DNA of 64,000 bases from Desulfomicrobium sp. (lineage in GTDB: Bacteria; Desulfobacterota; Desulfovibrionia; Desulfovibrionales; Desulfomicrobiaceae), in the NCBI GenBank assembly GCA_040768745.1, contig JAXGMI010000002.1, positions 32,001 to 96,000 on the forward strand, in the 5' to 3' direction. The notes beneath the pieces are model-generated. The model was not told where the DNA came from. It worked only from the letters and a program-made list of their open reading frames with translations, and did not search any database. The position numbers were made by a program, and so were the translations under genes. Positions 7,694 through 46,669 of the stretch are shown in pieces (the first letter of the stretch is position 1; every line of letters starts with the position of its first letter).

Positions 7694-9222
7694 TTAGATG
7701 ATTTCTTTGAAGTCCGCGCCGGTGCTGGTCAGGATGAAGTTCAGCTCGATGAACTCCGCCGTCTTGGTCGGCTTGACGAACACGCGGGCCACCATTTCGT
7801 TGCGGTCGATGACCGCCGGGGTGTTGGTCTCCTCGTCGCACTGGAAGGCGAAGTCGTAGAGGCCGCCCTTGTCCTTGATGTCCTGCAGGAAGGGTTGATC
7901 AGGCGGCCGAGGGCACGCCAGGTCTGGGGATGGTTCGGCTCGAACACCACGAAGCGGGAGGATTCCGAGATGGCTTCCTCCATGAACATCATCAGGCGGC
8001 GGACGTTGATGCGGTCCACGGCCGAGGGCTGGCTCTGCAGCGTCTTCTGGCCCCAGATGTTGATGCCGGTGTCGGGGAACACGGCGATGACGTTGACCCC
8101 TTCCGGATAGAGCACATCGCGCTCGCCACGGCTGGTCTTGTAGGCCAGGGAGAGCGTGTTGAAGATGCGGCCACGGTCGATACCGGCGGGCGCGTTCCAG
8201 ACGTTGGTCTTCTGGTCGCTGCGGGCGATGCAGCCCGCCACCGCGCCGCAGGGCGGCACCAGCTTCTTGCGCGAGTTGACCGGATCGCTGATCTCCAGCC
8301 AGGGGTAGTAGAGCGCCGCGTAGGAGGAGTTGAAGGCCGCGTGGCTGTACATCCCTTGTCCCTTGCGGAAGTCGACCGCTTCGAGCGGCTCCAGATGCAT
8401 GGGCGTGTCGGCGATGAACAGCAGATCCTTGCGCCCCTCGGCATAGGCGATTCCGGCGTTGATCACCGGCACCGTGGTGACGCCGGGGACCATCAGCAGG
8501 TTCAGGGCGTCGATCTCGTCAAAGCCATAGAGGCCGGTATGCTGCGAGGGATCGCCGATGAAATCGGCATCGGCCAGATCGGTCAGCCCGTTGTCGCCGC
8601 CGCTGAGCGTGAACACGCCCAATGCCGGACGGTCGCCGGGCGTTCCCGATTGCTGCGGCCAGATCCTGGACCAGGATGAAATCCGAGCGGTCGTTGATCG
8701 CCAGCTCCACATGGTTCGGCAGCGTCTCGTCCATGCTCAGATCCTTGAACACCTCGACCACATCGCCTTTGTGCCGGACCACCAGGTTGAAATGGTTGGC
8801 CGGGTCGAGGAGCCGTCCTCGATGGAGACGGAGAGCCGGTCGCCCCAGACGCCTTCGTTCACGGCCTCGATCCGCAGGGCGTCGGCGGGCGTCGCCTCCC
8901 GGTTCTGCAGCACGATGGAAGATTTGAGCGCCGTCAGGGTGTCCCGGTCGGTGGAGTCGGTGAGATGGGCGATGCGGGTGACGTAGAGGACCGAGCCGCC
9001 GTTGTCGAAAAACGCCCGTGCGGCGTAGGCCAGATAGCTCTCGTTGATATAGGAGCCGAAACGGTTGATGAACTGCTCCCAGCTCGTCACCAGCACGGGC
9101 TTGTTGATCGGGCCTTTCTCGGCCACCCCGACCATGGCGGCCGACGAGGTCGAGATCTGCTTCACATAGAAACTGAAGTCCGTTTCCCGGGTGTAAATCC
9201 CGGGCGATAGATAGGTCGGCAT
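7694..9222 (-). CDS. Contractile tail sheath protein (frameshifted)
   Basis: MPTYLSPGIYTRE, FFDNGG, YAALYYPW, PPCGAVAG, WNAPAG, IWGQKTL, INVRRL, VFEPN. Confidence 0.93.
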
Positions 9223-22566: not shown

Positions 22567-24087
22567 TCAGATGAAGACCGGATTGGTGAGCACCGGCTTG
22601 AGCGAGACCACCTCTTCGCCGACCGGGTCGAGGTTGCCTTCTTCCCGGATCAGCATGGCGCAGCGCACCGCGTCGATGATGTGGTCGTTGCCCTTGGAAT
22701 AGATGATCTTGCCGTCCCGCAGGGTGTAGGTGTGGGTGGTGAACTGGTCTTCCACCTCCAGGTCGTCCGAGGGGAAATGACCTGCTTGCGCTGTAGGGCT
22801 CCGTTGATGAGGCTGGTCATCAGCTCCTTGGTCCGCTTCTTGATTTCCTTGCCGTCCCGCACCGCCAGCCGGGTCATGCCGCCGAAGTCGTATCCCTTGA
22901 GCCTGCCTTCCAGCTCCAGCCCTTGTACTTGTCCAGGGTGAGCAGCTCCTGAACCACGGCCAGACCGTTGCCGCCGTTGTCCACGCCGATGCCCGCCGGG
23001 GTGTAGTAACGCTCCAGCAGCGCGATGATCTGGGCGATGTGCGGATAGGAAACGTGTTCGAGATGCACGCGCAGGATCATCTTCAGCAGCGTCCGCTCGC
23101 CGATCTCCATCTCCTGGAATACGACGATCTCGGTGGGGTCGTTGGTGTAGCCCAGGTCGCCGCCGACCCAGAACTGCCCGCTGCGGGGCGTGAGGTTGAG
23201 CAGCATCTCCAGCCGGTCGTGGGCCGCTTCCTCGGTGTCGCAGTCGCGCAGCTCGGAATCGGTGATGACGATCTTCTGGTACTCCAGCAGATCCTGCCGA
23301 CAGAGGTTGAACTGCTCGACATTGAAGGCCCCATAGGAGGGCTTGCCGTGTTCACCGGCCACCTCGTGCTGCCAGCCGGAGCTGTCGCGGCCGCCGTAGA
23401 ACTCCAGCAGTTCGGCCTCGCGATCCTCGGTCCACAGGGGATTGAGCCAGGACGGCCAGCGGAACACATGGAACTGATCCGACGAGGTGAGCCGGTAATA
23501 GGTGGTGTCGCGCAGGCCGTTGGGCGTGGAGTAGATGCGTAGCGTCCCCCGGCCTTGAGGCACTGGCGCAGCGCCTTCCAGGCCCGTTCGGTCAGCCAGG
23601 CTCCTTCATCGACCCAGACGCGGCCCACGTGCAGGGACCGGAAGGCGTCGCCATAGGCCCCGGCCGGGCGGAAATAGAGCACCGAACCGTTGGTGAACTC
23701 CAGCCGGAAGTAGGGTTTGCGGTGGATCTTGGGCTTGCCGTACTTGGTCAGGGCGATGCTGTTCATCAGATCCGGGTTGGTGTCGAGCTGGAACTCGATC
23801 TCCTCGATGATGGTATCGAGGTGCCCCTGGTGCGGAGCCGCGATGAGGCCCTGGCCGCCTCGGGTGGTGAAGGCGTAATGGAGCGCGTCGGTCGAGAGCA
23901 CGATGGACTTGCCCACGTCCCGGCCGTCGAGGTGGATGATGTTCTTGGCCGGGCAGCGCAGGTCCTCCACCTGGTGCGGCCAGTAGTCGCGGCCTGAGCC
24001 ATCCCGGTTGTAGAGGTAGGCTTGCCCCCACAACACGGGATCGCTCAGGGTCGCCGCGAGTTTGCGCTCCTTGTCGGTTACCGCCAT
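22567..24087 (-). CDS. Terminase large subunit (3 frameshifts)
   Basis: GRDVGKS Walker A, VWVDEG Walker B, YSTPNG coupling motif, GGDLG and NDHIIDA nuclease motifs. Confidence 0.9.
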
Positions 24088-24365
24088 CAGTGCATTCCCG
24101 TCCTCAAGGCGTTGCCGAGGATGGTGCCCACCAGTTCCGTCAGGATCTGCTGCACGGCCAGGGTGTTCTTCCGGTCGTGGACAGCTTCCTGAATGTCGAT
24201 GATGGCCTGGTCCAACTCCGCCCAGGCCCGGTACTGCTGCTGGGCCGCTTCCAGACGGCCGAGGGCGTTCTCGATCCGTCCCGCCGCCAGCTCGGTGCCG
24301 ATTTCGACCAGGGCCTCACCGGCCTGGCGAACGGCATCGCTGTTTTCCTGAAGGATCTCTTTCAT
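24087..24365 (-). CDS. Hypothetical helical protein
   Basis: MKEILQENS... coupled between the lipoprotein gene and terL. Confidence 0.6.
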   Translation of the reverse strand: MKEILQENSDAVRQAGEALVEIGTELAAGRIENALGRLEAAQQQYRAWAELDQAIIDIQEAVHDRKNTLAVQQILTELVGTILGNALRTGMH

Positions 24366-24634
24366 TGGCCTGCCTCCTGGTTCGCGCCGTTGGCCCACTG
24401 GTCAAGGGCGTCCACGGCGGTCTGCAGGCGCAGGCCGACTCCGGTCAGGCGCTCGGCGTCCGGGTGGCCGACCTCGCGCAGCGCCTTGTTGGCCTCGGTC
24501 ACGTACTCGGGCGTGTGGCGGTTGACGGTGGCCACCGCCGACTGGATCTGGGCCGGAGGCCGGTAGGTGGCGCAGCCGGTCATGATCCCGGCCAGGGCCA
24601 GCGGGATGGTCCATTCGAGGGTCTTCTTCAACAT
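24362..24634 (-). CDS. Small lipoprotein
   Basis: MLKKTLEWTIPLALAGIMTG-C signal peptide II / lipobox; AAGGAG RBS. Confidence 0.7.
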   Translation of the reverse strand: MLKKTLEWTIPLALAGIMTGCATYRPPAQIQSAVATVNRHTPEYVTEANKALREVGHPDAERLTGVGLRLQTAVDALDQWANGANQEAGQ

Positions 24635-24774
24635 GTTGATCTCCTTTGGGTTATGGGTTTGGGGCACATGCAGAAAGATCTCTGCAAACACTTGATTTCC
24701 AACGAAATAGAAGCGTCATTGGATGTGACGCGGGATGGTCCCGCATCCACGAAAACCGGAACCGGAGGCAGGCC

Positions 24775-24969
24775 ATGACCTACGACAGAAACCGCCAGCA
24801 GGCACTCAAGGCGTACCGAGAAAAGCAGGAGAACATCACCCGGCTGATCGAGGGCATTCGCGGCAAGCTCGAAGCGGACGCGAAGCAGCCGGACATCACC
24901 TGGGCGAGCGTCGGCTCCCTCGGCCACGTCGAGGAACTGCTGCGGGAGCTGGACGAGTTCCTGTCCTGA
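24775..24969 (+). CDS. Small hypothetical protein, first gene of the recombinase cassette
   Basis: GGAGG RBS; MTYDRNRQQ...WASVGSLGHVEELL, 64 aa. Confidence 0.7.
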   Translation: MTYDRNRQQALKAYREKQENITRLIEGIRGKLEADAKQPDITWASVGSLGHVEELLRELDEFLS

Positions 24970-25002
24970 ACACACCGGGCCACCGACAAAGGAGACATCG
25001 AC

Positions 25003-25377
25003 ATGACCGAATGCACCGTGCATCAAGCCGCCGAGGCTTTCATCGGCCACCTGCGGGAATCCGGAAAGAAAGAGCGGACCCTCTACACCTACCGGAAGGA
25101 CCTCGACGTGGTTGAGGCCTTCTTCGGCGCGGATCGCCAGCTCGCCGAGATCCGGCTTCCCCAGGTCGGCAAGTTCTACAAGTCCGACCTGCTGCTCAAA
25201 CTCCCCGACGGCAAGGAGCGGGCCGAACGCACCGTCGCCAAGACCGTCCGGGTGTTCCGCATGATGATGGTCTGGGCCAGGGAGTCGGGGCGCATCGAGA
25301 GCTGCCGCCTGCCCAAGAGCACACCCATGGGCCACAGCCGGGTGAAGGAGTCCAGCGATGAGCAACCGAACGGCTGA
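25003..25377 (+). CDS. Stand-alone integrase core-binding (SAM-like) domain protein
   Basis: FIGHLRESGKKERTLYTYRKDL...RTVAKTVRVFRMMMVWA..G.I parallels the recombinase N-terminal domain; no catalytic residues. Confidence 0.65.
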   Translation: MTECTVHQAAEAFIGHLRESGKKERTLYTYRKDLDVVEAFFGADRQLAEIRLPQVGKFYKSDLLLKLPDGKERAERTVAKTVRVFRMMMVWARESGRIESCRLPKSTPMGHSRVKESSDEQPNG

Positions 25378-26272
25378 CCTCGACCTGACGGGCGCGACAG
25401 AGGCGTTCTGTGCCCGCCTGTCGGCCGAAGGACGCTCCCCCGGCGACCATAGCCGCATACCGCCGGGACCTCGCCCTGGTGGCCCGCGTGGCCGGGGAGC
25501 TGGCCCCGGGCATCGTCTGCCGGGCGGTCACGGCCGGGCTCCTCGACCAGGTGTTCTCCGCCGGGGCGGTCACCGAGAGTGAGCGAGGCCCACGCTCGGC
25601 GGCCTCGCTCCATCGGATGAAGGCGGCGGTGCGGGCCTTTTTCGCCTGGGCCGCCGAGGCGGGCGTGGTCGATGACAATCCGGCCCGGTCCATCCGCATG
25701 CATCGGCTGCCGAGAAAGCTGCCGGTGTTCCTGACCGCCGCCGAAAAGAAACGTCTGCTCAAGGAGCTCAAGGGACGGACCGACTTCTCCGCGCTGCGCG
25801 ACCGCGCCATGATCGAGGTGCTGCTGGGCACCGGGATCAGGCTTGGCGAGCTGGCCGCGCTCGACATGGATGACATCGACCTCGACGCCAAGCATCTGCG
25901 GGTGCGGGCCAAGGGGAATGTGCCGCAGGTCAAGTTCATCAAGACCGACCTCCGCACATTGCTCGCCGTTACCTGGCCGAGCGCCGTCGACACGGCCGCC
26001 CGGAAATGGAAGCCCTGTTCCTGTCGAACCGGGACGGCAGACTCTGCCAGCGACAGATAGCCAACCGGCTCGCCCACTGGCTGCGGAAGGCCGGGATCGA
26101 AAAGGAACTGACGCCGCACGGGCTGCGGCATACCTTCGCCACCCACCTCTACGGCGCGACCAACGACCTACTCGTGGTGCAGCGGGCCTTGGGGCATCGG
26201 GACGTGTCCACCACCCAGATCTACACCCACCTCGTGGACGGCCAGCTCGAGGAAGCCCTCGAACGCCTCTGA
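25358..26272 (+). CDS. XerC-like tyrosine recombinase (frameshifts near 25440 and 25965)
   Basis: RDRAMIEVLLGTGIRLGEL, AKG, HGLRHTFAT, LGHRDVSTTQIYTH: full R-K-H-R-H-Y set. Confidence 0.9.
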
Positions 26273-26302
26273 TCCTTCCGGACCCGACGATGGGAGCGGC
26301 CT

Positions 26303-26328
26303 CGGCTGCTCCTGTTTTCGTTGGGGAA
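26303..26328 (+). terminator. Probable intrinsic terminator of the recombinase cassette
   Basis: GGAGCGGCC-TC-GGCTGCTCC followed by TGTTTT. Confidence 0.55.
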
Positions 26329-26470
26329 GACAGTATCGAAGACAGTGAATGAAAGTGCCCGCAGAAGAACACATCCGCCGATGATGAATGATCATGACGA
26401 TGGTTCTCGGCCTCCCAGGCGGAGCGGGAAATATCGATTGACCGGAATTTCTCCTTTTCTGTCTGTCGGC

Positions 26471-26723
26471 CGCACATGGCTATAACTGCTTGGCTTGTGC
26501 GCTCCGGGCGCGGAACACACATGGCAATATCTGCTTGGCATATGCGAGGACCGCTGGCGAAGGAATGGCTGCTTGCGGGGCCTGGCCGGTTCTGCCTGGG
26601 GCTCGACATGCCCATATTTACTTGGGTTGTGTGAGAGAGCTCCGGCGTGAACATGCCAATATCTACTTGGGTTATGCGGCTCGGCTTATGCGCACACATG
26701 CCAAGCGGATATCGAGAGCTGCA
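26471..26723. repeat. Array of five 31-bp imperfect palindromes (12-7-12) with 45-bp period
   Basis: Units start at 26471, 26516, 26603, 26648, 26693; consensus approx. nnnACATGSCAA-TATCTRC-TTGGSWTRTGCG; fifth core inverted. Confidence 0.8.
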
Positions 26724-26872
26724 GGAAGAAATCGAGGAGTGGAAATGATGATCGGCGGCCGGAAAATACCGATTCCGAAAGTGCAAGGAACACGTCTTAT
26801 CCGCAATTCCTGGTGTAGCTGTCTGCCGCAAGTCGCCGTGTGCCGGGGTCATCGGAAAAGCCCTCCATGGTG

Positions 26873-27373
26873 TTATCCGCAATTCTTTCCGCGTTTCTTG
26901 CGGCCGGAGGTTTTCGTTGCCGGGGCGTTGGCGGCCTCGGCCACCTTCTCGAGCAGCGCCGCCGCCCATTCCGCCGGAGAGGTCTGCGGGCCTTTCGGCT
27001 CCTCACCCTCGCGGGCGATCTTGGTGGTCTTGAGATCCTTCATGTGGCAGCGGATCATCCGGTCGAGTTTTTCGGCGGCGTCCGTGTTCCCCTCGATCTG
27101 GGCGCGGACCAGCTTCACCGAGTAGACGCCCACCAGCTCCACCTGCAGGAAGTCGCTGGACTTGTTGAACTCGAAGTCCTGGTTGAGGCGGTCGATGATC
27201 GCGTCGAACATGACCTTCTCTTCCGGCGTCAGGCAGCGGTCGGCGAAGATGCCGTGACGCAGCCGGTTCTGGTTGCCCTCGGGCGCACCAGGCCCGCGCC
27301 GGGGCGGTTCGGTCTTGCCCTCGTTGCGGTGCCAGCGGTCCAGCGTCTCTTTGTCCGGTTTGTTCAGTGCCAC
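26873..27373 (-). CDS. Terminase small subunit
   Basis: GAPEGNQNRLRHG motif typical of TerS; upstream of terL. Confidence 0.7.
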   Translation of the reverse strand: MALNKPDKETLDRWHRNEGKTEPPRRGPGAPEGNQNRLRHGIFADRCLTPEEKVMFDAIIDRLNQDFEFNKSSDFLQVELVGVYSVKLVRAQIEGNTDAAEKLDRMIRCHMKDLKTTKIAREGEEPKGPQTSPAEWAAALLEKVAEAANAPATKTSGRKKRGKNCG

Positions 27374-27464
27374 GTGGAAATCCTGCCGAATATTGTTTTC
27401 CCAAGCCGGGATGCGGGGCGGGAGGCCGATTTAGCCTCCAAACGCGCTCCCGCCGGTTCAGGGG

Positions 27465-27495
27465 TTACTTACCGGAAGCGACGGCCAACTGTCGG
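27465..27495 (-). promoter_or_regulatory. Phage promoter motif copy upstream of terS (overlaps the upstream stop codon)
   Basis: TTACTTACCGG-N14-TGTCGG. Confidence 0.75.
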
Positions 27496-27743
27496 TCCCG
27501 ATCCTGTTTTCGTTCGGCGGCGATGATCTGGTTGACCCGGCGGGTGGTCACACCGGCGAGGTTGGAGATCTCCTGGCTGCTGATCCCCTGCAGATGAAGG
27601 GCAAGCACCAGGTCGCGGCGCTCCTGGTAAAACCGGCTCGGTGCCGGAACCCAGAGAATCCCGGTGTAGTGCTTCTGGATTTGCTCGAAGAGTTCCTCGG
27701 GCAGGACATCCTTGGCGTTGGCGTAGCGTTTCTTTTTCTTCAC
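27465..27743 (-). CDS. CD3324/Mor-like HTH protein
   Basis: YANAKDVLPEELFEQIQKHY.G.LWVP; C-terminal HTH GISSQEISNLAGVTTRRVNQII. Confidence 0.7.
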   Translation of the reverse strand: MKKKKRYANAKDVLPEELFEQIQKHYTGILWVPAPSRFYQERRDLVLALHLQGISSQEISNLAGVTTRRVNQIIAAERKQDRDRQLAVASGK

Positions 27744-27746
27744 GGT

Positions 27747-28517
27747 TCAATCCTCCACTTTCTTCATCCACGGCTGCGGCACGTCCGGGTTGTAGAACCG
27801 CAGCGTGCTGGGACGCCCTGACTTCGGCCCATGGATAATTGCGATAGAACGCTCGGTGACCTCGCCAATCTCCTGATCGCCATCGACGAAGCAGACCAGG
27901 CCGTAGTCCTCGCCGCAGGGAAACCGGAAGCGGCCTAGGTTCTGATAGAGGCGTGCCTCGGACCAGCCCTTGGCCATGGCCTCCTCACGGATGGCGTCGA
28001 CCTTGGCGACAGCCTGGGAAGACACCGACTGCTTACATTTCCAAGATTGGTTCCCGGGATAAATCCAGTCCTTTCTCGGAACTTCGACGGGTTTCTCCTG
28101 GGACTCGGGACGAAGCGCGGGTGGCCGGTAGTTCTTCGGGGAAAAGGACTGCACTACCTCCTGCAGGCTTTCCTTGCCGAACTCCCGGATGGACAGTTCC
28201 TGCAGGGCGTTGAATCTCTGCCGTAGCGTGTTCCAGGCATCGTCGGGGAGCTTTCCGGCCTTGTGCGCGGCTTGGGCGGTGACCATGCGGGAACGCAGCC
28301 AGACAAAGTATTCAGGGGACAGACGGCGACACAGCGTGCCGTTTACCTCCCGGTCTTCAGGCCAGTCGCGGGCGTCCTCGATGTCGTGGATGTCGAGCCC
28401 TGTGGAGACATAGATAGCGGGCTGCGGTGGTTGCGGTGGTAATGATGGGGTTTCACATCCGGCCGAGGCTTCCTGCCCTCCGGTGGTGTGCTTGATCATG
28501 GTTTTCAGAAGGCTCAT
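27747..28517 (-). CDS. Hypothetical phage protein
   Basis: 256 aa ORF preceded by the promoter motif. Confidence 0.7.
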   Translation of the reverse strand: MSLLKTMIKHTTGGQEASAGCETPSLPPQPPQPAIYVSTGLDIHDIEDARDWPEDREVNGTLCRRLSPEYFVWLRSRMVTAQAAHKAGKLPDDAWNTLRQRFNALQELSIREFGKESLQEVVQSFSPKNYRPPALRPESQEKPVEVPRKDWIYPGNQSWKCKQSVSSQAVAKVDAIREEAMAKGWSEARLYQNLGRFRFPCGEDYGLVCFVDGDQEIGEVTERSIAIIHGPKSGRPSTLRFYNPDVPQPWMKKVED

Positions 28518-28557
28518 GGCTTCGGGCTCCAGAAATACGGGTTAATCGCTTTTCCCG

Positions 28558-28588
28558 TTACTTACCGGAGCCCAAAGCCAGATGACGG
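28558..28588 (-). promoter_or_regulatory. Phage promoter motif copy
   Basis: TTACTTACCGG-N14-TGACGG, intergenic. Confidence 0.7.
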
Positions 28589-28687
28589 CGGACCGATGCC
28601 TTCGCTTGTAATCGTTTTTTGAGCGAGAGGCCGTTTTGTAACTGTTTTTTGAGGTCTCTAAACGTTTTTCGAGAAACCGGCAGGCTC

Positions 28688-29039
28688 GGCGGTGGATACC
28701 TGCGGTGGCTGCGGTGGTCGTGCGGTGGAAGATTTTCTCGTCCCACCGCAGGGAGTGGTGCGTTGTTTGTTTATTGTTTTTAGATAGTTATGAAGAAAGA
28801 AAAGAGAGAGTGCGGTGGTTGCGGTGGTATTTGGGGAATGTCTCTCACGCTTGGCCGAAATTTATCTGGCGGGGAACGCCGGATTGGTGGGTCGAAAAAA
28901 TATTTCATTCCATAGGGGGTGAGACCTCTGGATTTACCACCGCAGCCACCGCAAAGGCTATGAACGCCTTGTCTGGCAAGGGTTTGGCGTGCGGTGGTCA
29001 TCCACCGCAAGAGACAGCGGTGATCACCGCACCACCGCA
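28688..29039. repeat. Cluster of TGCGGTGG octamers in both orientations (candidate replication origin)
   Basis: Exact copies at 28701, 28710, 28721, 28811, 28820, 28990 (forward) and 28743, 28937, 28946, 29002, 29032 (inverted); AT-rich patch near 28765-28800. Confidence 0.75.
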
Positions 29040-29058: not shown

Positions 29059-30570
29059 TCAATCCGTTGTCTTTCGATTATCTATAGAAATGATAACGTT
29101 CGTTTCATGTTGACCCAGGTGCCACCGTTTACTAGTGACCTGTTGGAGGAAATGCAAATCATGGCTGATCAGCAACAGGCCACAGGGGCAATCTTTCAGG
29201 GCATTCTCTAAGCACTCGATTGCTGGAAGATCGAGATGATTTGTCGGTTCATCCATAACAATTAAATGCGGCTGACGAATAATTCCAAGCGCCAATAGCA
29301 CCTTGCGCAATTCACCTGGGCTGATATCAAGGTTATGTAACAGTCGTTCAGGGCGTGACCCAAGAGCACTCACCACTGTCATAATTTTACCAAGTTGTTC
29401 ATGAGAAAGGTGATTTACATCTGCCATGATTTTTCGGGTTTTCATCATGTCAATCTCTTGCGGTAAATATACCAAATGCTCATTAGGAATATTTATGTGG
29501 TTAAGAATATGTCGAATAAAAGTTGTCTTTCCCATTCCATTTGCTCCAGTAATAGCAATACGATCGTCACGTAGCATTGTAATCTCTGGTATATGCAATT
29601 TTCTTGATTCATCGAGAGCGATTATGTCAGCAGGAATAGTAAAGAGGATTCGACGTGGAGAGACGGAACCATCGATCCAGAAATGAGTTGCATAGCGTTT
29701 CTTGATTTTTATATCAGAAATTTGTTCCTGCACATGCTTTATACGACCTTTTAATTGCTTAGCAAGACGCCCGGCATGACCATCCTGTCCTGAAACACGA
29801 GCCAGGTCGATTTTGGCACGCCCATCGCTGTCACCACGTGCCAAATGACGTTTCGATTTCTTTTTGTTGGCGCGTGAGGCTTTAGCGCAGCGACGTTTCG
29901 ACTCGTCCTTTAATCGTTCCAGGTTTTGTTGCAAACTATGACGTCTATCCTGCAAACTTGATTCTTCTCGTTTAACATCTGCGGCAGCTTTCGTATAATT
30001 GCCAGGTTGTATTATGGCTTGAGGGGGGTCGAGAAAAATACATTGCTGGCAAAGAAGGTCAAGCAAATCTCGGTCATGGCTAACCAGCAGGCCAATACCA
30101 CGAAATGACGTAAGCGCTTCTATAAGCAGCTCACGGGCCGTAATATCAATATGATTGGTCGGTTCATCAAGAAGAAGGACATCCGGTTGTTGCCAGAGAG
30201 CGACAGCAATTTGAGCACGCTTACGCTCGCCATGACTTAGTGTCGGCCAGCGACTTACCCAATCATCGCCAATCCTTAGCTTTCCACGCAGTACGCATGC
30301 CTCTGCTTCAACGGTAGAAATCAAAAGTGATAGCTGTGCCGGAACATCGTCAGTGCGCTGCGGGCAGAAAACTATATGTCCGGACCGTTTGATAGTCCCT
30401 TGCTGTACCTGTAGATGTCCTGCCGCAAGTTGCAGAAAAGTCGTTTTCCCTGCACCGTTTGGCCCTACGATTCCTGTCCATCCTTCCGCAAGATGAACTG
30501 TGATGTCCTCAAGCAATGAGGATATTGCACTATCATAAGAAAAGGTAACGTTTTGAAAAGATATTGACAT
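29059..30570 (-). CDS. ABC-F family ATPase (candidate ribosome protection protein)
   Basis: Two nucleotide-binding domains (GPNGAGKT/LSHGE/LLLDEPTNH; GANGMGKT/ISPGE/MDEPTNHLD), long basic linker, no transmembrane segments; AT-rich. Confidence 0.88.
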   Translation of the reverse strand: MSISFQNVTFSYDSAISSLLEDITVHLAEGWTGIVGPNGAGKTTFLQLAAGHLQVQQGTIKRSGHIVFCPQRTDDVPAQLSLLISTVEAEACVLRGKLRIGDDWVSRWPTLSHGERKRAQIAVALWQQPDVLLLDEPTNHIDITARELLIEALTSFRGIGLLVSHDRDLLDLLCQQCIFLDPPQAIIQPGNYTKAAADVKREESSLQDRRHSLQQNLERLKDESKRRCAKASRANKKKSKRHLARGDSDGRAKIDLARVSGQDGHAGRLAKQLKGRIKHVQEQISDIKIKKRYATHFWIDGSVSPRRILFTIPADIIALDESRKLHIPEITMLRDDRIAITGANGMGKTTFIRHILNHINIPNEHLVYLPQEIDMMKTRKIMADVNHLSHEQLGKIMTVVSALGSRPERLLHNLDISPGELRKVLLALGIIRQPHLIVMDEPTNHLDLPAIECLENALKDCPCGLLLISHDLHFLQQVTSKRWHLGQHETNVIISIDNRKTTD

Positions 30571-30632
30571 TGTTGACCTCCAAGCATGCTGTAACAAAAC
30601 ATACTGGACGTCCCATTCCCATGGAATCAGCT

Positions 30633-44565: not shown

Positions 44566-45090
44566 ATGAATGAGTTACAGAACGCCGCCACCGGCGGCAA
44601 GATCCAGGACCGAACCCGAAACTCAGTCCTTCGGCAGATGGCCCTGCTGCAATCCATGTCCCTGGAGCAGCTCCGGGAAAAATGGCTCGACCTCTACGGA
44701 GAAGAGCCACCCCAGTACAAGAAACAATTCCTCATCAAGCGGCTGGCCTATCGCATCCAGGAGCTTTTCTACGGCGGGCTGTCCGAACAGGCCAAGGTCC
44801 ATCTCCAGCAGGCCGCCAAGGAGGACCCGGTCGCCACTGTCAATCGACGCATCCCAGAAGAGCGGAAATCGAACGAAGCGATCCTGCCCGGGACCAGACT
44901 GGTGCGGGTCTGGAACGACCGGCGCTATGAGGTGATCGTCCTTGCCGATGGCTACGAGTTCGAAGGCCGCACCTTCCGGTCGCTCAGCGCGGTGGCCAGG
45001 GAGATCACCGGGACCAGGTGGAACGGCAAGGTCTTTTTCGGACTGAAGAAGGTTTACGGCAGAAAAGCCGAGGGAGGTTCGGATGCTTGA
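44566..45090 (+). CDS. DUF2924 family protein
   Basis: LAYRIQE..GGLS, PGTRLVRVW, SLSAVAREITGTRWNG..FFGL. Confidence 0.85.
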   Translation: MNELQNAATGGKIQDRTRNSVLRQMALLQSMSLEQLREKWLDLYGEEPPQYKKQFLIKRLAYRIQELFYGGLSEQAKVHLQQAAKEDPVATVNRRIPEERKSNEAILPGTRLVRVWNDRRYEVIVLADGYEFEGRTFRSLSAVAREITGTRWNGKVFFGLKKVYGRKAEGGSDA

Positions 45091-46669
45091 TAACAGCAAT
45101 GTCGCGCCGGGCAAAAACAAGACCCTGCGCTGTGCCATCTACACCCGCAAGAGCCACGAGGAAGGTCTCGAACAGGAGTTCAACTCGTTGGATGCGCAAC
45201 GGGAATCGGCGGAACACTATATCGAAGCCCAGAGGATGCGTGGCTGGACGGCTCTGCCGGATCGCTACGACGATGGTGGATTCTCGGGTGGAAACATGGA
45301 GCGCCCGGGGCTGCGTCGCCTGCTGGCGGACATCAATGCCGGGAAGATTGACGTGATCGTGGTCTACAAGGTCGACCGGCTGTCCCGCTCGCTGCTGGAC
45401 TTCATGAAGATGATCGACCTCTTCAACGAGAAGGGTGTCAGCTTCGTCTCGGTCACCCAGCACTTCAGCACCACCGACCCCACCGGACGGATGTTTCTCG
45501 GCATCCTGATCACCTTCGCCCAGTACGAGCGGGAGGTCATCGCCGAGCGCATCCGGGACAAGGTGGCGGCCGCCAAGCGCCGGGGGAAATACTGCGGCGG
45601 CGTACCCATTCTTGGATACGACGTCGACCGGGACAACAAGAAGCTGCTGGTCAACCCGGATGAAGCCAGGACGGTGCAGTACATCTTCCGCCGATTCATC
45701 CAGATCGGCTCGGCCAAGAAGCTGGGCCAGGAATTGAACGAACAGGGATACCGCACAAAAGCCTGGACCACCAAGAAAGGCAAGGTTCGCGAGGGCTCAG
45801 AATGGAATACAGGCCACATCTACCGGCTGCTGAACAACCGGGTCTATATCGGCGAGATTGCCCACAAGGATCGCAGCTACCCCGGTGAGCACGAAGGAAT
45901 CATCGACCGGACGACCTGGGACAAGGTGCAGGCCATCCTGGAGGACAACAAACCGGTCAAGGTTTCCATGGCAAGAACCAAAATGGTCGCCCCGCTGAAA
46001 GGCGTCATCCGCTGCGGCCACTGCGGATGCGCGATGGGACCGACCTACGCCCGCAAGAACGGCCGCCACTACACCTATTACATCTGCCAGAAGGACAGCA
46101 AGCGGACCGTGAGCCGGTGCCCCCTCAAACGGATTCCCGCCGGGGACATCGAGCAGGCCGTGGTCGAGCAGTTGAGCGCGGTGTTCCGCACGCCGACGCT
46201 GGTGGCCAAAACCTACTTCGCGGCCCGGGACATCGAGCAGGTGGAGCGGGAGCGGCTGTTCAAGCAGAAAGCCCAACTCGAAATGGAGCTGTCGCAGGCG
46301 CGGGAGCAAGCCATCGAACTTATGAAACCCGGCAACGATCAGCCGGGCAAGACCGAGATGCTCACGACCGTCAACCGCCAGGCGGTCGAGCTCTCGAAAC
46401 AACTGACGCACGTGAGCGAGCGATGCAGAGCCTACCGGGGGAACAACATCACGGAACAGGACGTTTCGGAGGCCTTCCAGAATGTCGAGGGCTTCTGGGA
46501 GGACCTTTTCCCGGTGGAGCGAAACCGGCTCATCCGCCTCCTGGTGGATAAGGTCGAGATCCGCGAGACCGGAATCGACATGGAGCTGCGCACCAACGGG
46601 CTGACTACGCTCATCGCCGAGCTGGCCGGTCTGGCATGCGAAGTCACCGAACGGAGGGCAAGCCGATGA
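45083..46669 (+). CDS. Large serine recombinase
   Basis: AIYTRKS, DGGFSGG..RPGL, VYKVDRLSR, zinc ribbon CGHCG. Confidence 0.93.
   Translation: MLDNSNVAPGKNKTLRCAIYTRKSHEEGLEQEFNSLDAQRESAEHYIEAQRMRGWTALPDRYDDGGFSGGNMERPGLRRLLADINAGKIDVIVVYKVDRLSRSLLDFMKMIDLFNEKGVSFVSVTQHFSTTDPTGRMFLGILITFAQYEREVIAERIRDKVAAAKRRGKYCGGVPILGYDVDRDNKKLLVNPDEARTVQYIFRRFIQIGSAKKLGQELNEQGYRTKAWTTKKGKVREGSEWNTGHIYRLLNNRVYIGEIAHKDRSYPGEHEGIIDRTTWDKVQAILEDNKPVKVSMARTKMVAPLKGVIRCGHCGCAMGPTYARKNGRHYTYYICQKDSKRTVSRCPLKRIPAGDIEQAVVEQLSAVFRTPTLVAKTYFAARDIEQVERERLFKQKAQLEMELSQAREQAIELMKPGNDQPGKTEMLTTVNRQAVELSKQLTHVSERCRAYRGNNITEQDVSEAFQNVEGFWEDLFPVERNRLIRLLVDKVEIRETGIDMELRTNGLTTLIAELAGLACEVTERRASR

What the first reader, a model, noticed from the sequence alone, without database searches (positions are those of the whole stretch)
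24775..26723. Tyrosine recombinase cassette followed by a 45-bp-period array of lox/sfx-like sites
Seen: after a three-gene plus-strand cassette (64 aa protein, stand-alone core-binding protein, XerC-like recombinase) and its terminator lie five 31-bp units: cgcacatggcta-taactgc-ttggcttgtgcg (26471), cacacatggcaa-tatctgc-ttggcatatgcg (26516), tcgacatgccca-tatttac-ttgggttgtgtg (26603), tgaacatgccaa-tatctac-ttgggttatgcg (26648), cacacatgccaa-gcggata-tcgagagctgca (26693). Start-to-start spacing is 45, 87, 45, 45, with unique 14-bp linkers. The fifth core is the reverse complement (tatccgc) and keeps only one good arm. Known: inverted arms around an asymmetric 6-8 bp core is the tyrosine recombinase site architecture (loxP, dif; 12-7-12 for R64 shufflon sfx sites). 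Inference: these are the cognate sites, but 14-bp segments are too short to be shufflon cassettes. The array could be a landing pad or record of past recombination, a resolution/inversion switch, or a protein-loading platform. I do not recognise a described system like this.
Basis: partly seen in the sequence, partly recalled or inferred. Interest (0 to 1): 0.85.

Follow-up and report, generated by a model that had tools for sequence, protein, structure and literature searches.

The report
Optional repeat array beside phage recombinase
A real but dispensable cluster of palindromic DNA repeats, variable in copy number, sits next to a Xer-type recombinase inside a widespread prophage; it is probably an accessory protein-binding platform rather than the enzyme's essential target.

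Summary
Four direct 31-bp dyad units lie at 26471, 26516, 26603 and 26648, with an inverted half unit at 26693 (4 matches against 0.06 expected). This is their only site in the genome.

The setting is a temperate myovirus prophage that carries a large serine recombinase near its right end (45083-46669). The Xer-type module lies inside the prophage, between terS and terL.

I compared 85 copies (84 related loci plus the window):
- The unit number is 4, 3, 2 or 1 in 39, 1, 6 and 8 of the 54 close copies. It changed at least 7 times on their tree.
- A 70%-identical lineage keeps only an 8-bp motif, at an exact 45-bp spacing, in 24 of 31 copies.
- The other 7 of 31 keep the whole cassette and terS but have no array.

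So the array is neither the recombinase's indispensable site nor a pac/cos site. Hairpin covariation, codon-type substitution and cargo flanked by units were all tested and not found.

A dyad I call E1 (11-6-11; 26780-26807) and a second dyad, D (26426-26456), are conserved across the family. They are better candidates for the crossover site.

My best reading, at about 0.35, is accessory binding sites like those of TnpI/IRS or cer. Two earlier reports of this scan, on other genomes, reached the same view.

The parts
24775..24969 (+). 64-aa ORF, first gene of the cassette; function unknown
   Evidence: phrog_14596, E 3.4e-5; no Pfam or NCBIfam hit. tblastn finds it at 31-57% identity in most distant relatives; L027, L034 and L039 gave no match, and the L039 locus starts too late to hold it.
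25003..25377 (+). 124-aa stand-alone core-binding (SAM-like) domain protein, a paralog of the recombinase N-terminal domain
   Evidence: BLASTP against the intact recombinase of L008: 25% identity over 118 aa, E 2e-6. phrog_1 integrase positions 164-251, E 1.2e-6. 93-98% identical in 20 close genome loci and 51-69% in distant ones.
25358..26272 (+). Xer-type tyrosine recombinase gene, here interrupted by two single-base indels (about 25437-25442 and 25962-25963)
   Evidence: Pfam Phage_integrase and Phage_int_SAM_1 on the pieces. The intact 304-aa form in L008 scores 222.5 bits on TIGR02224 XerC (cut-off 335) and E 3.5e-36 to XerD structure 1a0p. The indels are unique to the window.
26292..26322 (+). 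Intrinsic terminator of the cassette
   Evidence: The fold of 26284-26324 is -26.2 kcal/mol, z -5.65, with a U-run after the stem.
26323..26425 (.). Spacer module 'B' (short GACAGT repeats), shared with the array-less relatives L030 and L031
   Evidence: Read. The L030 versus L029 comparison shows that only this slot differs.
26426..26456 (.). Dyad D (GGGAAATAT-N10-GAATTTC type), conserved across the family
   Evidence: Arms GGAAATTT(T)/(A)AAATTTC(C) with a variable spacer of about 8 bp were found in the relatives that my pattern matched (38 of 85 copies). The 47 close copies that it missed have the window's variant by eye.
26471..26501 (+). Array unit 1 (CGCACATGGCTA-TAACTGC-TTGGCTTGTGCG)
26516..26546 (+). 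Array unit 2
26561..26600 (+). Decayed unit remnant in the 87-bp gap
   Evidence: D2 copy at 26564-26575, 83% to the core/right-arm junction of unit 2. My reading of it as a decayed unit is inference.
26603..26633 (+). Array unit 3
26648..26678 (+). Array unit 4
26681..26712 (.). Terminal head-to-head element: an extra right-arm half-site (26681-26692) abutting the inverted half unit (26693-26712). It is kept in every close copy, whatever the unit number.
   Evidence: half-sites; present in all 54 close copies. A counterpart, TTATGTGCGCATAAGCCAA, occurs in the distant lineage.
26757..26782 (.). D', a degenerate second copy of dyad D. It sits where the single D lies in the distant lineage.
   Evidence: By-eye alignment of sequences (about 19 of 29 positions); not tested statistically.
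26780..26807 (.). E1: an 11-6-11 dyad (AGTGCAAGGAA CACGTC TTATCCGCAAT). It is present across the family and is a candidate crossover site.
   Evidence: Found in 84 of 85 copies, with 3-9 of 11 dyad matches and central CACGTC in most. It is unique in the genome at up to 3 mismatches. It also lies in the first codons of the ORF downstream of terS, so coding could explain part of its conservation.
26870..26885 (.). E2: a direct copy of the E1 right arm, overlapping the terS stop codon. It co-varies with E1 across lineages.
   Evidence: (D4)
26873..27373 (-). terS (small terminase subunit, weak matches only)
   Evidence: phrog_1889, E 1e-4; NF040601, E 0.0047. It lies upstream of terL (23083-24087) and the portal gene.
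25176..26852 (-). Stop-free reading frame on the terS strand, running through the whole spacer and the array (ATG at 26852 with a GGAGGG ribosome-binding site). It is open but shows no amino-acid constraint.
   Evidence: 78 of 84 copies are open from E1 to the recombinase stop. 0 stop-creating variants against 5.8-6.6 expected, P 0.0015-0.003. Synonymous:nonsynonymous is 63:133 against a null of 54 synonymous; the terS control gives 107:35 against a null of 50.

Best explanation
The array is a genuine but optional cluster of dyad protein-binding sites, restricted to some lineages and variable in copy number. It lies in the spacer between terS and a conserved Xer-type recombinase module inside a temperate phage. 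That phage also carries a large serine recombinase near its right end, presumably its integrase.

The most likely role is accessory. The half-sites (consensus TTGGC-W-T-R-TG-Y-G, phased every 45 bp) would be loaded by one of the module's own DNA-binding proteins: either the recombinase core-binding domain or its catalytically dead 124-aa paralog. The resulting nucleoprotein scaffold would sit beside the real crossover site. The best candidates for that site are the family-wide 11-6-11 dyad E1, 57 bp to the right, or dyad D just to the left. The array would then tune efficiency or directionality, as the DR1-DR2 motifs do for TnpI at the Tn4430 IRS, or as the accessory sequences do at cer. Unit number drifts through in-register exchange between units.

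Shown: the anatomy, the uniqueness, the phasing, the variable copy number, the dispensability, and the conserved neighbouring dyads.
Inferred: who binds, that E1 or D is the crossover site, and what the recombinase does for the phage (dimer resolution or cyclisation).
For: 1. The units are real and statistically exceptional.
2. Two lineages whose spacers no longer align (about 70% identical in the flanking genes) both keep a shared 8-bp motif in direct repeat at exactly 45 bp. In the distant lineage TTATGYGC lies at 89/134/179 in 18 of 31 copies and at two of those positions in 6 more. In L079 there are 4 matches against 0.28 expected. Both lineages also keep a head-to-head pair. Motif and phase are retained although the linkers are not, which points to a DNA-level function.
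3. The array always lies on the same side of E1, next to the recombinase gene's 3' end.
4. It is dispensable. 7 of 31 distant copies lack it but keep the 124-aa gene, the recombinase and terS. Close copies have 4, 3, 2 or 1 units (39, 1, 6, 8 of 54), with at least 7 changes on a 52-row tree. This matches published accessory motifs, described as 'dispensable accessory sequences' (PMC2847244, abstract and introduction passages).
5. The terminal head-to-head element survives in all 54 close copies.
6. The cassette encodes a second, catalysis-free core-binding-domain protein, a natural candidate for non-catalytic site occupancy.
7. E1 (84 of 85 copies) and D are conserved across the family where the array is not.
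Against: - No binding data exist.
- A position weight matrix built from the ten half-sites does not pick out the E1 or E2 arms. So, unlike in TnpI/IRS, the putative accessory motifs do not share a sequence with the putative core.
- Array-less phages keep the 124-aa protein, so that protein does not depend on the array.
- Variability inside units is about the same as in the flanks (entropy 0.0-0.21 against 0.12-0.13), so purifying selection on the units is not demonstrable at this divergence.
- Deletion junctions are compatible with plain homology-driven slippage.
- E1 may be conserved partly because it encodes the first residues of the ORF downstream of terS.
- Contigs of 4 metagenome runs show no alternative joints.
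Confidence: 0.35

Rival explanations
1. The units are themselves recombination-competent lox/dif-like sites of the adjacent recombinase. Exchange between units, or between sister copies, would resolve, delete or invert DNA.
For: - The 12-7-12 anatomy has an asymmetric core.
- The copy-number variants are all in register.
- In 18 of 28 distinct four-unit arrays the four cores all differ. The observed two-unit form is what a unit 2 x unit 4 exchange would give, and those two units share a core in 9 of 28 arrays.
- For the L074/L067 and L046/L060 pairs the exchange interval includes the right part of the core.
Against: - 7 of 31 distant cassettes have no units.
- In the distant lineage the motifs are not arranged as 12-7-12 dyads.
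- L023 needs an exchange inside the left arm.
- 10 of 28 four-unit arrays persist with two identical cores.
- No joints were seen in 4 runs, although contigs cannot show rare forms.
Confidence: 0.15
2. The array is a loading platform for a different protein: TerS (a packaging enhancer), the 92-aa Mor/C-like regulator, or a host nucleoid or Xer protein. Its place next to the recombinase would then be incidental.
For: - It lies directly downstream of terS, on the terS-strand transcript.
- The 45-bp phasing suits wrapping around an oligomer (inference).
- The array matrix does not match the candidate recombinase sites.
Against: - An essential pac/cos site cannot be missing from 7 of 31 relatives that keep terS and terL.
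- No further half-site cluster exists elsewhere in the prophage, for example near the repressor or replication genes.
- No contig ends coincide with the array.
Confidence: 0.2
3. The array has no function of its own. It would be a repeat expansion that arose by duplication and is kept in flux by slippage and gene conversion in a tolerant spacer.
For: - It is optional and variable in copy number.
- Polymorphisms mostly swap one unit's variant for another's, as gene conversion would.
- Per-site variability is no lower than in the flanks.
- The same slot holds unrelated fillers in other lineages: module B, an REase-fold gene, a toxin-antitoxin-like pair.
Against: - Motif, head-to-head pair and exact 45-bp phase are retained in two lineages whose spacers otherwise do not align.
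- The four-unit form persists in 39 of 54 close copies spread over several phyla.
Confidence: 0.2
4. The period of 45 reflects a 15-residue protein repeat in a real gene on the terS strand.
For: - A stop-free frame with an ATG and a GGAGGG site runs through the spacer in 78 of 84 copies.
- All spacer length variants differ by multiples of 3.
- 0 stop-creating variants against 5.8-6.6 expected.
Against: - Synonymous:nonsynonymous is 63:133 against a null of 54 synonymous (P 0.09), whereas the terS control gives 107:35 against 50 and the recombinase C-terminus 39:11 against 16.6.
- There is no third-position excess.
- The frame content is swapped wholesale between lineages.
- No Pfam family is matched.
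- In L081 and L096 the array lies outside any ORF.
Confidence: 0.05

Closest known systems
TnpI / internal resolution site (IRS) of Tn4430 (PMC2847244; abstract, introduction and figure-legend passages read)
   Same: A tyrosine recombinase gene lies next to a compact site made of several copies of one binding motif: an inverted pair plus direct repeats on one side. The direct repeats are dispensable accessory elements.
   Different: - The IRS is 116 bp with four motifs that share 9 bp with the core. Here there are up to ten half-sites over about 240 bp at a 45-bp phase, and they do not match the family-wide dyads E1 and D.
- The element here is a phage, not a Tn3-family transposon.
- A separate protein made only of the core-binding domain is present.
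- Binding is untested.
Xer sites with accessory sequences (cer, psi) and single-recombinase Xer modules such as XerS/difSL (review PMC5357621; passages read)
   Same: The recombinase is Xer-like. E1 has the 11-6-11 plan. As with XerS/difSL, the gene and its candidate site sit side by side as one module. cer has accessory DNA flanking the core.
   Different: - Bits on the XerC and XerD models are below the curated cut-offs (222.5 against 335; 205.3 against 329.6).
- The known accessory proteins are host PepA, ArgR and ArcA, not a paralogous core-binding domain.
- This module is inside a phage's packaging region.
- Likeness of E1 to any real dif sequence was not tested here.
Cre/loxP of phage P1
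   Same: A phage-borne tyrosine recombinase that is not the integrase, with its site next to the gene. A possible role is cyclisation of terminally redundant DNA or dimer resolution.
   Different: - loxP is a single 13-8-13 site without an array.
- P1 is a plasmid prophage, whereas this phage is integrated and carries a large serine recombinase near its end.
- There is no evidence here about virion DNA ends.
   Same: Multiple 12-7-12-type sites for one tyrosine recombinase.
   Different: - Shufflon sites are in mixed orientation and flank invertible gene segments.
- Here four units are direct, the linkers are 14 bp, and no constrained coding segment lies between them.

Membership tests
Tyrosine-recombinase crossover site (lox/FRT/dif type) | Two inverted arms of about 11-13 bp around an asymmetric 6-8 bp spacer | tested here: met
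   12-7-12 in four units. 70% of arm cells are complementary over 47 distinct unit sequences.
Tyrosine-recombinase crossover site (lox/FRT/dif type) | The site is inherited together with its recombinase in homologous elements | tested here: not met
   7 of 31 distant cassettes lack any unit or motif, while all 54 close ones have 1-4 units.
Tyrosine-recombinase crossover site (lox/FRT/dif type) | Exchange points fall inside the spacer | tested here: inconclusive
   The junction intervals cover the right part of the core plus 7 nt of the right arm in two sister pairs. L023 needs an exchange in the left arm.
Tyrosine-recombinase crossover site (lox/FRT/dif type) | Recombinase binds and cleaves the site | not testable with these tools
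   No protein-DNA modelling or assay was available.
Accessory-arm resolution site (TnpI/IRS, cer/psi type) | A core dyad with extra binding motifs clustered on one side, dispensable for catalysis | tested here: inconclusive
   The geometry fits: the array lies 57 bp to one side of the family-wide dyad E1 and is dispensable. That E1 is the core is inference.
Accessory-arm resolution site (TnpI/IRS, cer/psi type) | Accessory motifs share the core arms' recognition sequence (TnpI case) | tested here: not met
   The half-site matrix ranks no E1 or E2 arm among its 40 best hits in the window.
Shufflon | Sites in both orientations flanking invertible coding segments | tested here: not met
   Four units are direct, the linkers are 14 bp, and the spanning frame shows no amino-acid constraint.
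Integron-like cassette array (attC) | Cargo genes flanked by the sites; sites that act as folded single strands | tested here: not met
   Cargo in L027, L081 and L096 is not flanked by units. No compensatory changes were found: 484 of 500 shuffles (percentage paired) to 500 of 500 (covariation score) reach the observed value.
pac/cos terminase recognition site | Present in every relative that packages with the same terminase | tested here: not met
   7 of 31 distant copies with terS lack it. Binding by TerS was not testable.
Protein-coding 15-residue repeat | Excess of synonymous over nonsynonymous change | tested here: not met
   63:133 against a null of 54 synonymous, P 0.09. Controls: terS 107:35 and the recombinase 39:11.
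XerC/XerD equivalogs (NCBIfam TIGR02224/TIGR02225) | Score above the curated cut-off | tested here: not met
   222.5 against 335.15 bits and 205.3 against 329.6 bits for the intact L008 protein. It is Xer-like, not XerC or XerD proper.
Tyrosine recombinase (Pfam PF00589 + PF02899) | Catalytic domain plus SAM-like core-binding domain above the gathering score | tested here: met
   PF00589 scores 45.7 and 85.8 bits on the two window pieces (cut-off 27.1). PF02899 scores 27.1 bits (cut-off 22.3).

The most novel reading that the evidence does not exclude
The array-bearing segment is a small mobile insert, put in and taken out by the phage's Xer-type recombinase at dyad D. In the window it is bracketed by D (26426-26456) and a degenerate copy D' (26757-82), and array-less relatives carry one clean D at the same place. 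In addition, its units may be lox-like sites with mutually different cores. These would let incoming, terminally redundant phage DNA circularise without host recombination, which would help explain why near-identical copies of this prophage occur in several bacterial phyla.
Probability: 0.08. Interest if true: 0.75.

Novelty: new variant of a known kind. Interest (0 to 1): 0.4.

Why it matters
Temperate phages that integrate with one recombinase yet keep a second, Xer-type recombinase in the middle of their packaging genes are not described in the papers my searches reached. Searches returned no paper describing such a module; I saw search listings and abstracts only.

If the array proves to be an accessory scaffold read by a paralog made only of the core-binding domain, it would be a new way of building a topological filter for a tyrosine recombinase. 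It would also be a compact, self-contained recombination module that works in many phyla.

If the array is only a drifting repeat, the finding is ordinary. The lasting value is then the map of the module (D, E1/E2, the helper paralog) and the clear negative results for the more exotic readings.

Tried and rejected
- RNA family: no credible Rfam match in 24000-29000 (best E 0.18, far below the gathering score).
- Tandem repeat: Tandem Repeats Finder finds none.
- Hairpin (RNA or single-stranded DNA) reading of the units: no covariation. The 271-nt minus-strand fold has z -3.0, driven by the inverted half unit pairing with unit 2, as any inverted repeat would give.
- Promoter in the array: none found by the consensus scan.
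- Characterised phage relatives: a blastn search of 24000-27500 against GenBank phages gives one 90-nt hit. TerL's best hit is 27.8% identical and the recombinase's best is below 40%.
- Operator in the cassette promoter: the best extra half-site (24646-24657, score 12.97) is not conserved in the distant lineage. I dropped it as chance.
- Link between array half-sites and the E1/E2 arms: looked promising by eye, but the matrix scan does not support it.
- Heterospecific-core idea: only 18 of 28 distinct four-unit arrays have four different cores.
- Contig ends as virion ends: the 9 loci that lacked a recombinase or terS match were examined. None of the cut loci ends in the array, and L007 and L038 end at the terminator hairpin.
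- Rearranged forms: read laying on contigs of X1, X2, X3 and X6 found no joints. Contigs drop rare variants, so this says little. No raw-read run was offered.
- Co-occurring gene: L030 (no array) and L029 (array) are collinear at 82-88% identity and differ only in the slot after the recombinase terminator, so no neighbouring gene tracks the array.
- Literature on P1 cyclisation: one search gave nothing usable, so that comparison rests on recall.
Full report
OBSERVATION

Four 31-bp units start at 26471, 26516, 26603 and 26648. A fifth element at 26693 is the reverse complement of a unit's core plus right arm (inverted pairs I1-I3, 75-89% complementary). The spacing is 45, 87, 45 and 45.

- A 20-nt degenerate unit pattern matches 4 times in the window against 0.06 expected; 0 of 100 shuffles reach 4.
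- In the 3.09-Mb genome, with up to 2 mismatches, it matches 6 times, 4 of them here.
- The 12-nt half-site pattern matches 10 times against 3.41 expected, and 8 of the 10 lie in 26490-26704.
- I add a further right-arm-type half-site at 26681-26692. It abuts the inverted half unit, so the array ends in a head-to-head pair. There is also a decayed unit in the 87-bp gap.
- Tandem Repeats Finder reports nothing, because the linkers differ.
- The consensus of 47 distinct unit sequences is TGnACATGCCAATATCTGCTTGGCTTATGCG. The right arm and the inner nine bases of the left arm are the conserved parts.

CONTEXT

The array lies inside a prophage.

- To its left on the minus strand are terL, a portal gene, a Mu-F-like head protein, the major head protein, sheath, tube, tape-measure and baseplate genes.
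- To its right are terS, a 92-aa Mor/C-like regulator, a low-GC ABC-type ATPase, a replication and recombination block (primase, RecD-like helicase, ERCC4, DUF669, AAA_24, PD-(D/E)XK) and a LexA-like repressor.
- At 45083-46669 there is a large serine recombinase, preceded by a DUF2924 gene. From its place at the prophage end I take it to be the integrase, which is inference. The Xer-type enzyme then has some other job.

The cassette on the plus strand is real:

- The 64-aa ORF matches phrog_14596.
- The 124-aa ORF is a paralog of the recombinase's own core-binding domain (25% identity, E 2e-6).
- The recombinase scores 222.5 bits on the XerC model, below its cut-off of 335, and E 3.5e-36 to the XerD structure.
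- A strong terminator follows.

In this window the recombinase gene carries one extra base near 25437-42 and lacks one near 25962-63, compared with all 19 close relatives aligned and with contigs from all 4 metagenome runs laid. terL, the sheath gene and other genes are also split here. This copy is therefore either decaying or poorly polished. I cannot tell which.

RELATIVES

A genome-contig scan with the 124-aa protein gave 34 loci. A viral-contig scan with the intact recombinase gave 63. In 84 of these both the recombinase end and terS could be placed. With the window, that makes 85 copies for comparison: 54 'close' (terS above 85% identical) and 31 'distant'. I left out the loci that are cut short or lack one of the two genes: L007, L011, L033, L034, L035, L038, L040, L063, L066, L072, L075, L085 and L104.

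Close copies are 93-99% identical in DNA over 23001-28571. They come from records labelled as several phyla.

Among the 54 close copies the spacer from the recombinase stop to terS falls into six length classes:

| Spacer length | Copies | Units |
|---|---|---|
| 606 | 36 | 4 |
| 681 | 2 | 4, plus a 75-bp insert |
| 747 | 1 | 4 |
| 561 | 1 | 3 |
| 474 | 6 | 2 |
| 429 | 8 | 1 |

Every class keeps the terminal head-to-head element. On a maximum-likelihood tree of the flanks (52 rows) the unit number changes at least 7 times, and well-supported branches alone force at least 4 separate origins of the one-unit state. The array is therefore in flux on a very short timescale.

In the distant lineage the flanking genes are about 70% identical and the spacer does not align with the window's. 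24 of 31 copies carry a different array there. The 8-mer TTATGYGC lies in direct repeat at exactly 45-bp intervals: three copies in 18 loci and two in 6. One inverted copy abuts the second direct copy, which again gives a head-to-head pair. In L079 all 4 matches lie in the spacer, against 0.28 expected in the locus. L083 has lost exactly one 45-bp step.

The other 7 distant copies (L027, L030, L031, L036, L039, L100, L102) have the 124-aa gene, the recombinase and terS but no array. tblastn found no 64-aa match in L027 or L039, and the L039 locus starts inside the 124-aa gene. L030 and L029 are collinear at 82-88% identity and differ only in the slot just after the recombinase terminator. On a recombinase tree the array-bearing clades are separated by array-less ones (many forks are unresolved). 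So the array was either gained once and then lost, or it moved between lineages.

WHAT THIS RULES OUT

- The array cannot be the recombinase's indispensable site, nor an essential pac/cos site, because whole functional-looking modules exist without it.
- It is not an integron-like or landing-pad record. The cargo found in the same spacer is an REase-fold gene in L027, L081 and L096, plus a pair in L034 that I take by eye to be a toxin-antitoxin pair. This cargo is not flanked by units.
- The units do not behave as hairpins. The observed pairing and covariation are no higher than in shuffles.
- They are not a constrained protein repeat.

AN UNEXPECTED FINDING

The minus-strand frame that starts at ATG 26852, behind a GGAGGG site, is free of stops through the entire spacer in 78 of 84 copies.

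- All spacer length variants differ by multiples of three.
- None of 196-212 polymorphisms creates a stop, against 5.8-6.6 expected (P 0.0015-0.003).
- Yet synonymous change is not enriched: 63:133 against a null of 54 synonymous. The terS control gives 107:35 against a null of 50.

The frame is kept open, but its amino acids are not conserved. One possibility is that translation must continue through this stretch of the late transcript; this is inference and is untested.

WHAT IS CONSERVED INSTEAD

Two dyads are conserved across the family.

- D has arms GGAAATTT(T)/(A)AAATTTC(C) around a variable spacer of about 8 bp (window 26426-26456).
- E1 is an 11-6-11 dyad (window 26780-26807, AGTGCAAGGAA CACGTC TTATCCGCAAT). 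It was found in 84 of 85 copies, with 3-9 of 11 symmetric positions. Its right arm is repeated at the terS stop (E2), and the two co-vary across lineages.
- An earlier report of this scan on another genome (e1-5357290) had named a '28-bp dif-like site about 60 bp further on'. That site is E1. I confirm its position, plan and conservation. I did not compare it with any real dif sequence.
- E1 also lies within the first ten codons of the ORF downstream of terS, which may explain part of its conservation.
- In the window the array segment is bracketed by D and a degenerate D' (26757-82). D' stands where the single D of the distant lineage stands. This is a by-eye alignment and fits either insertion at D or a local duplication.

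MECHANISM

I commit, at about 0.35, to the reading that the array is an accessory binding platform.

- The phased half-sites would be occupied by the recombinase's core-binding domain or by its catalysis-free 124-aa paralog.
- They would stand beside the real crossover site (E1 or D).
- They would shape the efficiency or directionality of a resolution or cyclisation reaction that the phage needs apart from integration.
- The published parallel is TnpI at the Tn4430 IRS. There an inverted pair of motifs forms the core, and two direct motifs on one side are 'dispensable accessory sequences' that impose resolution selectivity (PMC2847244, passages). cer with its accessory DNA, and single-recombinase Xer modules whose gene abuts the site, are related cases (PMC5357621, passages).

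Against this reading:

- The half-site matrix does not recognise the E1 or E2 arms.
- Variability within units is not lower than in the flanks.
- Junctions of the deletion variants fit plain homology-driven exchange as well as site-specific exchange.
- No alternative joints were seen in contigs of four runs, although contigs cannot show rare forms.

The rivals are: the units as true crossover sites (0.15), a platform for another protein (0.2), a functionless drifting repeat (0.2), and a real protein repeat (0.05).

NOVELTY AND VERDICT

No close relative exists among deposited phage genomes. Three literature searches found no description of such a module (listings and abstracts only). Two earlier reports of this scan on other genomes (e1-1202213, e1-5357290) reached the same main conclusion, that the repeats are an optional add-on of variable copy number. 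My counts reproduce it independently on this window and on 84 related loci.

The array is real and is more than chance. But it is most likely a variant of the known theme of accessory sites for a tyrosine recombinase, or a drifting repeat. It is not a new kind of system. Interest: 0.4.

Noticed in passing
window 23001-28571 and loci L007-L026: This prophage segment is 93-99% identical in DNA in genome records labelled as very different phyla: Thermodesulfobacteriota, Pseudomonadota (Ectothiorhodospira), Planctomycetota, Verrucomicrobiota and Hydrogenedentota. Several of these are on contigs longer than 1 Mb or on complete chromosomes. A near-identical temperate phage across phyla is unusual and deserves its own look, covering host range, mis-binning and the serine integrase target.
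   Followed up: partly
window 25176-26852 (minus strand): A stop-free frame on the terS strand runs through the whole spacer and on into the antisense of the recombinase gene. It is open in 78 of 84 copies, with 0 stop-creating variants against about 6 expected, yet it shows no amino-acid constraint. It may serve to keep the late transcript translated across the inverted cassette.
   Followed up: partly
window 26794-26809 and 26870-26885: The direct repeats E1 and E2 (GTSTTATCCGCAATTC), the second overlapping the terS stop codon, change in concert across lineages. This suggests paired binding sites or repeated conversion between the two.
   Followed up: partly
window 25437-25442, 25962-25963, 22874-24087, 7741-9222: This copy of the prophage has frame-breaking indels in the recombinase, terL, the sheath gene and other genes that are intact in relatives. 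It is either a decaying prophage or an assembly with indel errors.
   Followed up: partly
L010, L059, L063, L033 (insert at the equivalent of window 26428): A 75-bp insert with a terminator-like hairpin (CAAAACGGCAGGACAGCCGTTTTG) sits just left of dyad D in some close copies.
   Followed up: no
L057, between the lipoprotein gene and the 64-aa gene: A roughly 1.28-kb insertion interrupts the divergent promoter region of the cassette in one viral contig: the spacer is 1420 nt instead of 139. It looks like an insertion sequence but was not analysed.
   Followed up: no
L027, L081, L096 (spacer) and L034: The same spacer carries cargo in some relatives. One is a roughly 260-aa gene with an REase_MTES_1575/DUF559-like fold on the terS strand. 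In L034 there is a plus-strand pair that looks, by eye only, like an AbrB-type antitoxin with a Fic/Doc toxin (not scanned).
   Followed up: partly
window 24700-24774: The cassette's upstream region is highly conserved between lineages that are 70% identical elsewhere. It holds a GCAGAAAGATCTCTGC palindrome, a TTGATT...TAGAAG promoter-like pair and two hairpins (GCGTCATTGGATGTGACGC, GCGGGATGGTCCCGC). This suggests tight regulation of the module.
   Followed up: no
window 28571 onward, compared with the other loci: A mosaic boundary lies at 28571. Most relatives continue with a block of GCGGTGG repeats, whereas the window, L014 and L020 continue with a different, lower-GC block that holds an ABC-type ATPase (29059-30597).
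   Followed up: no
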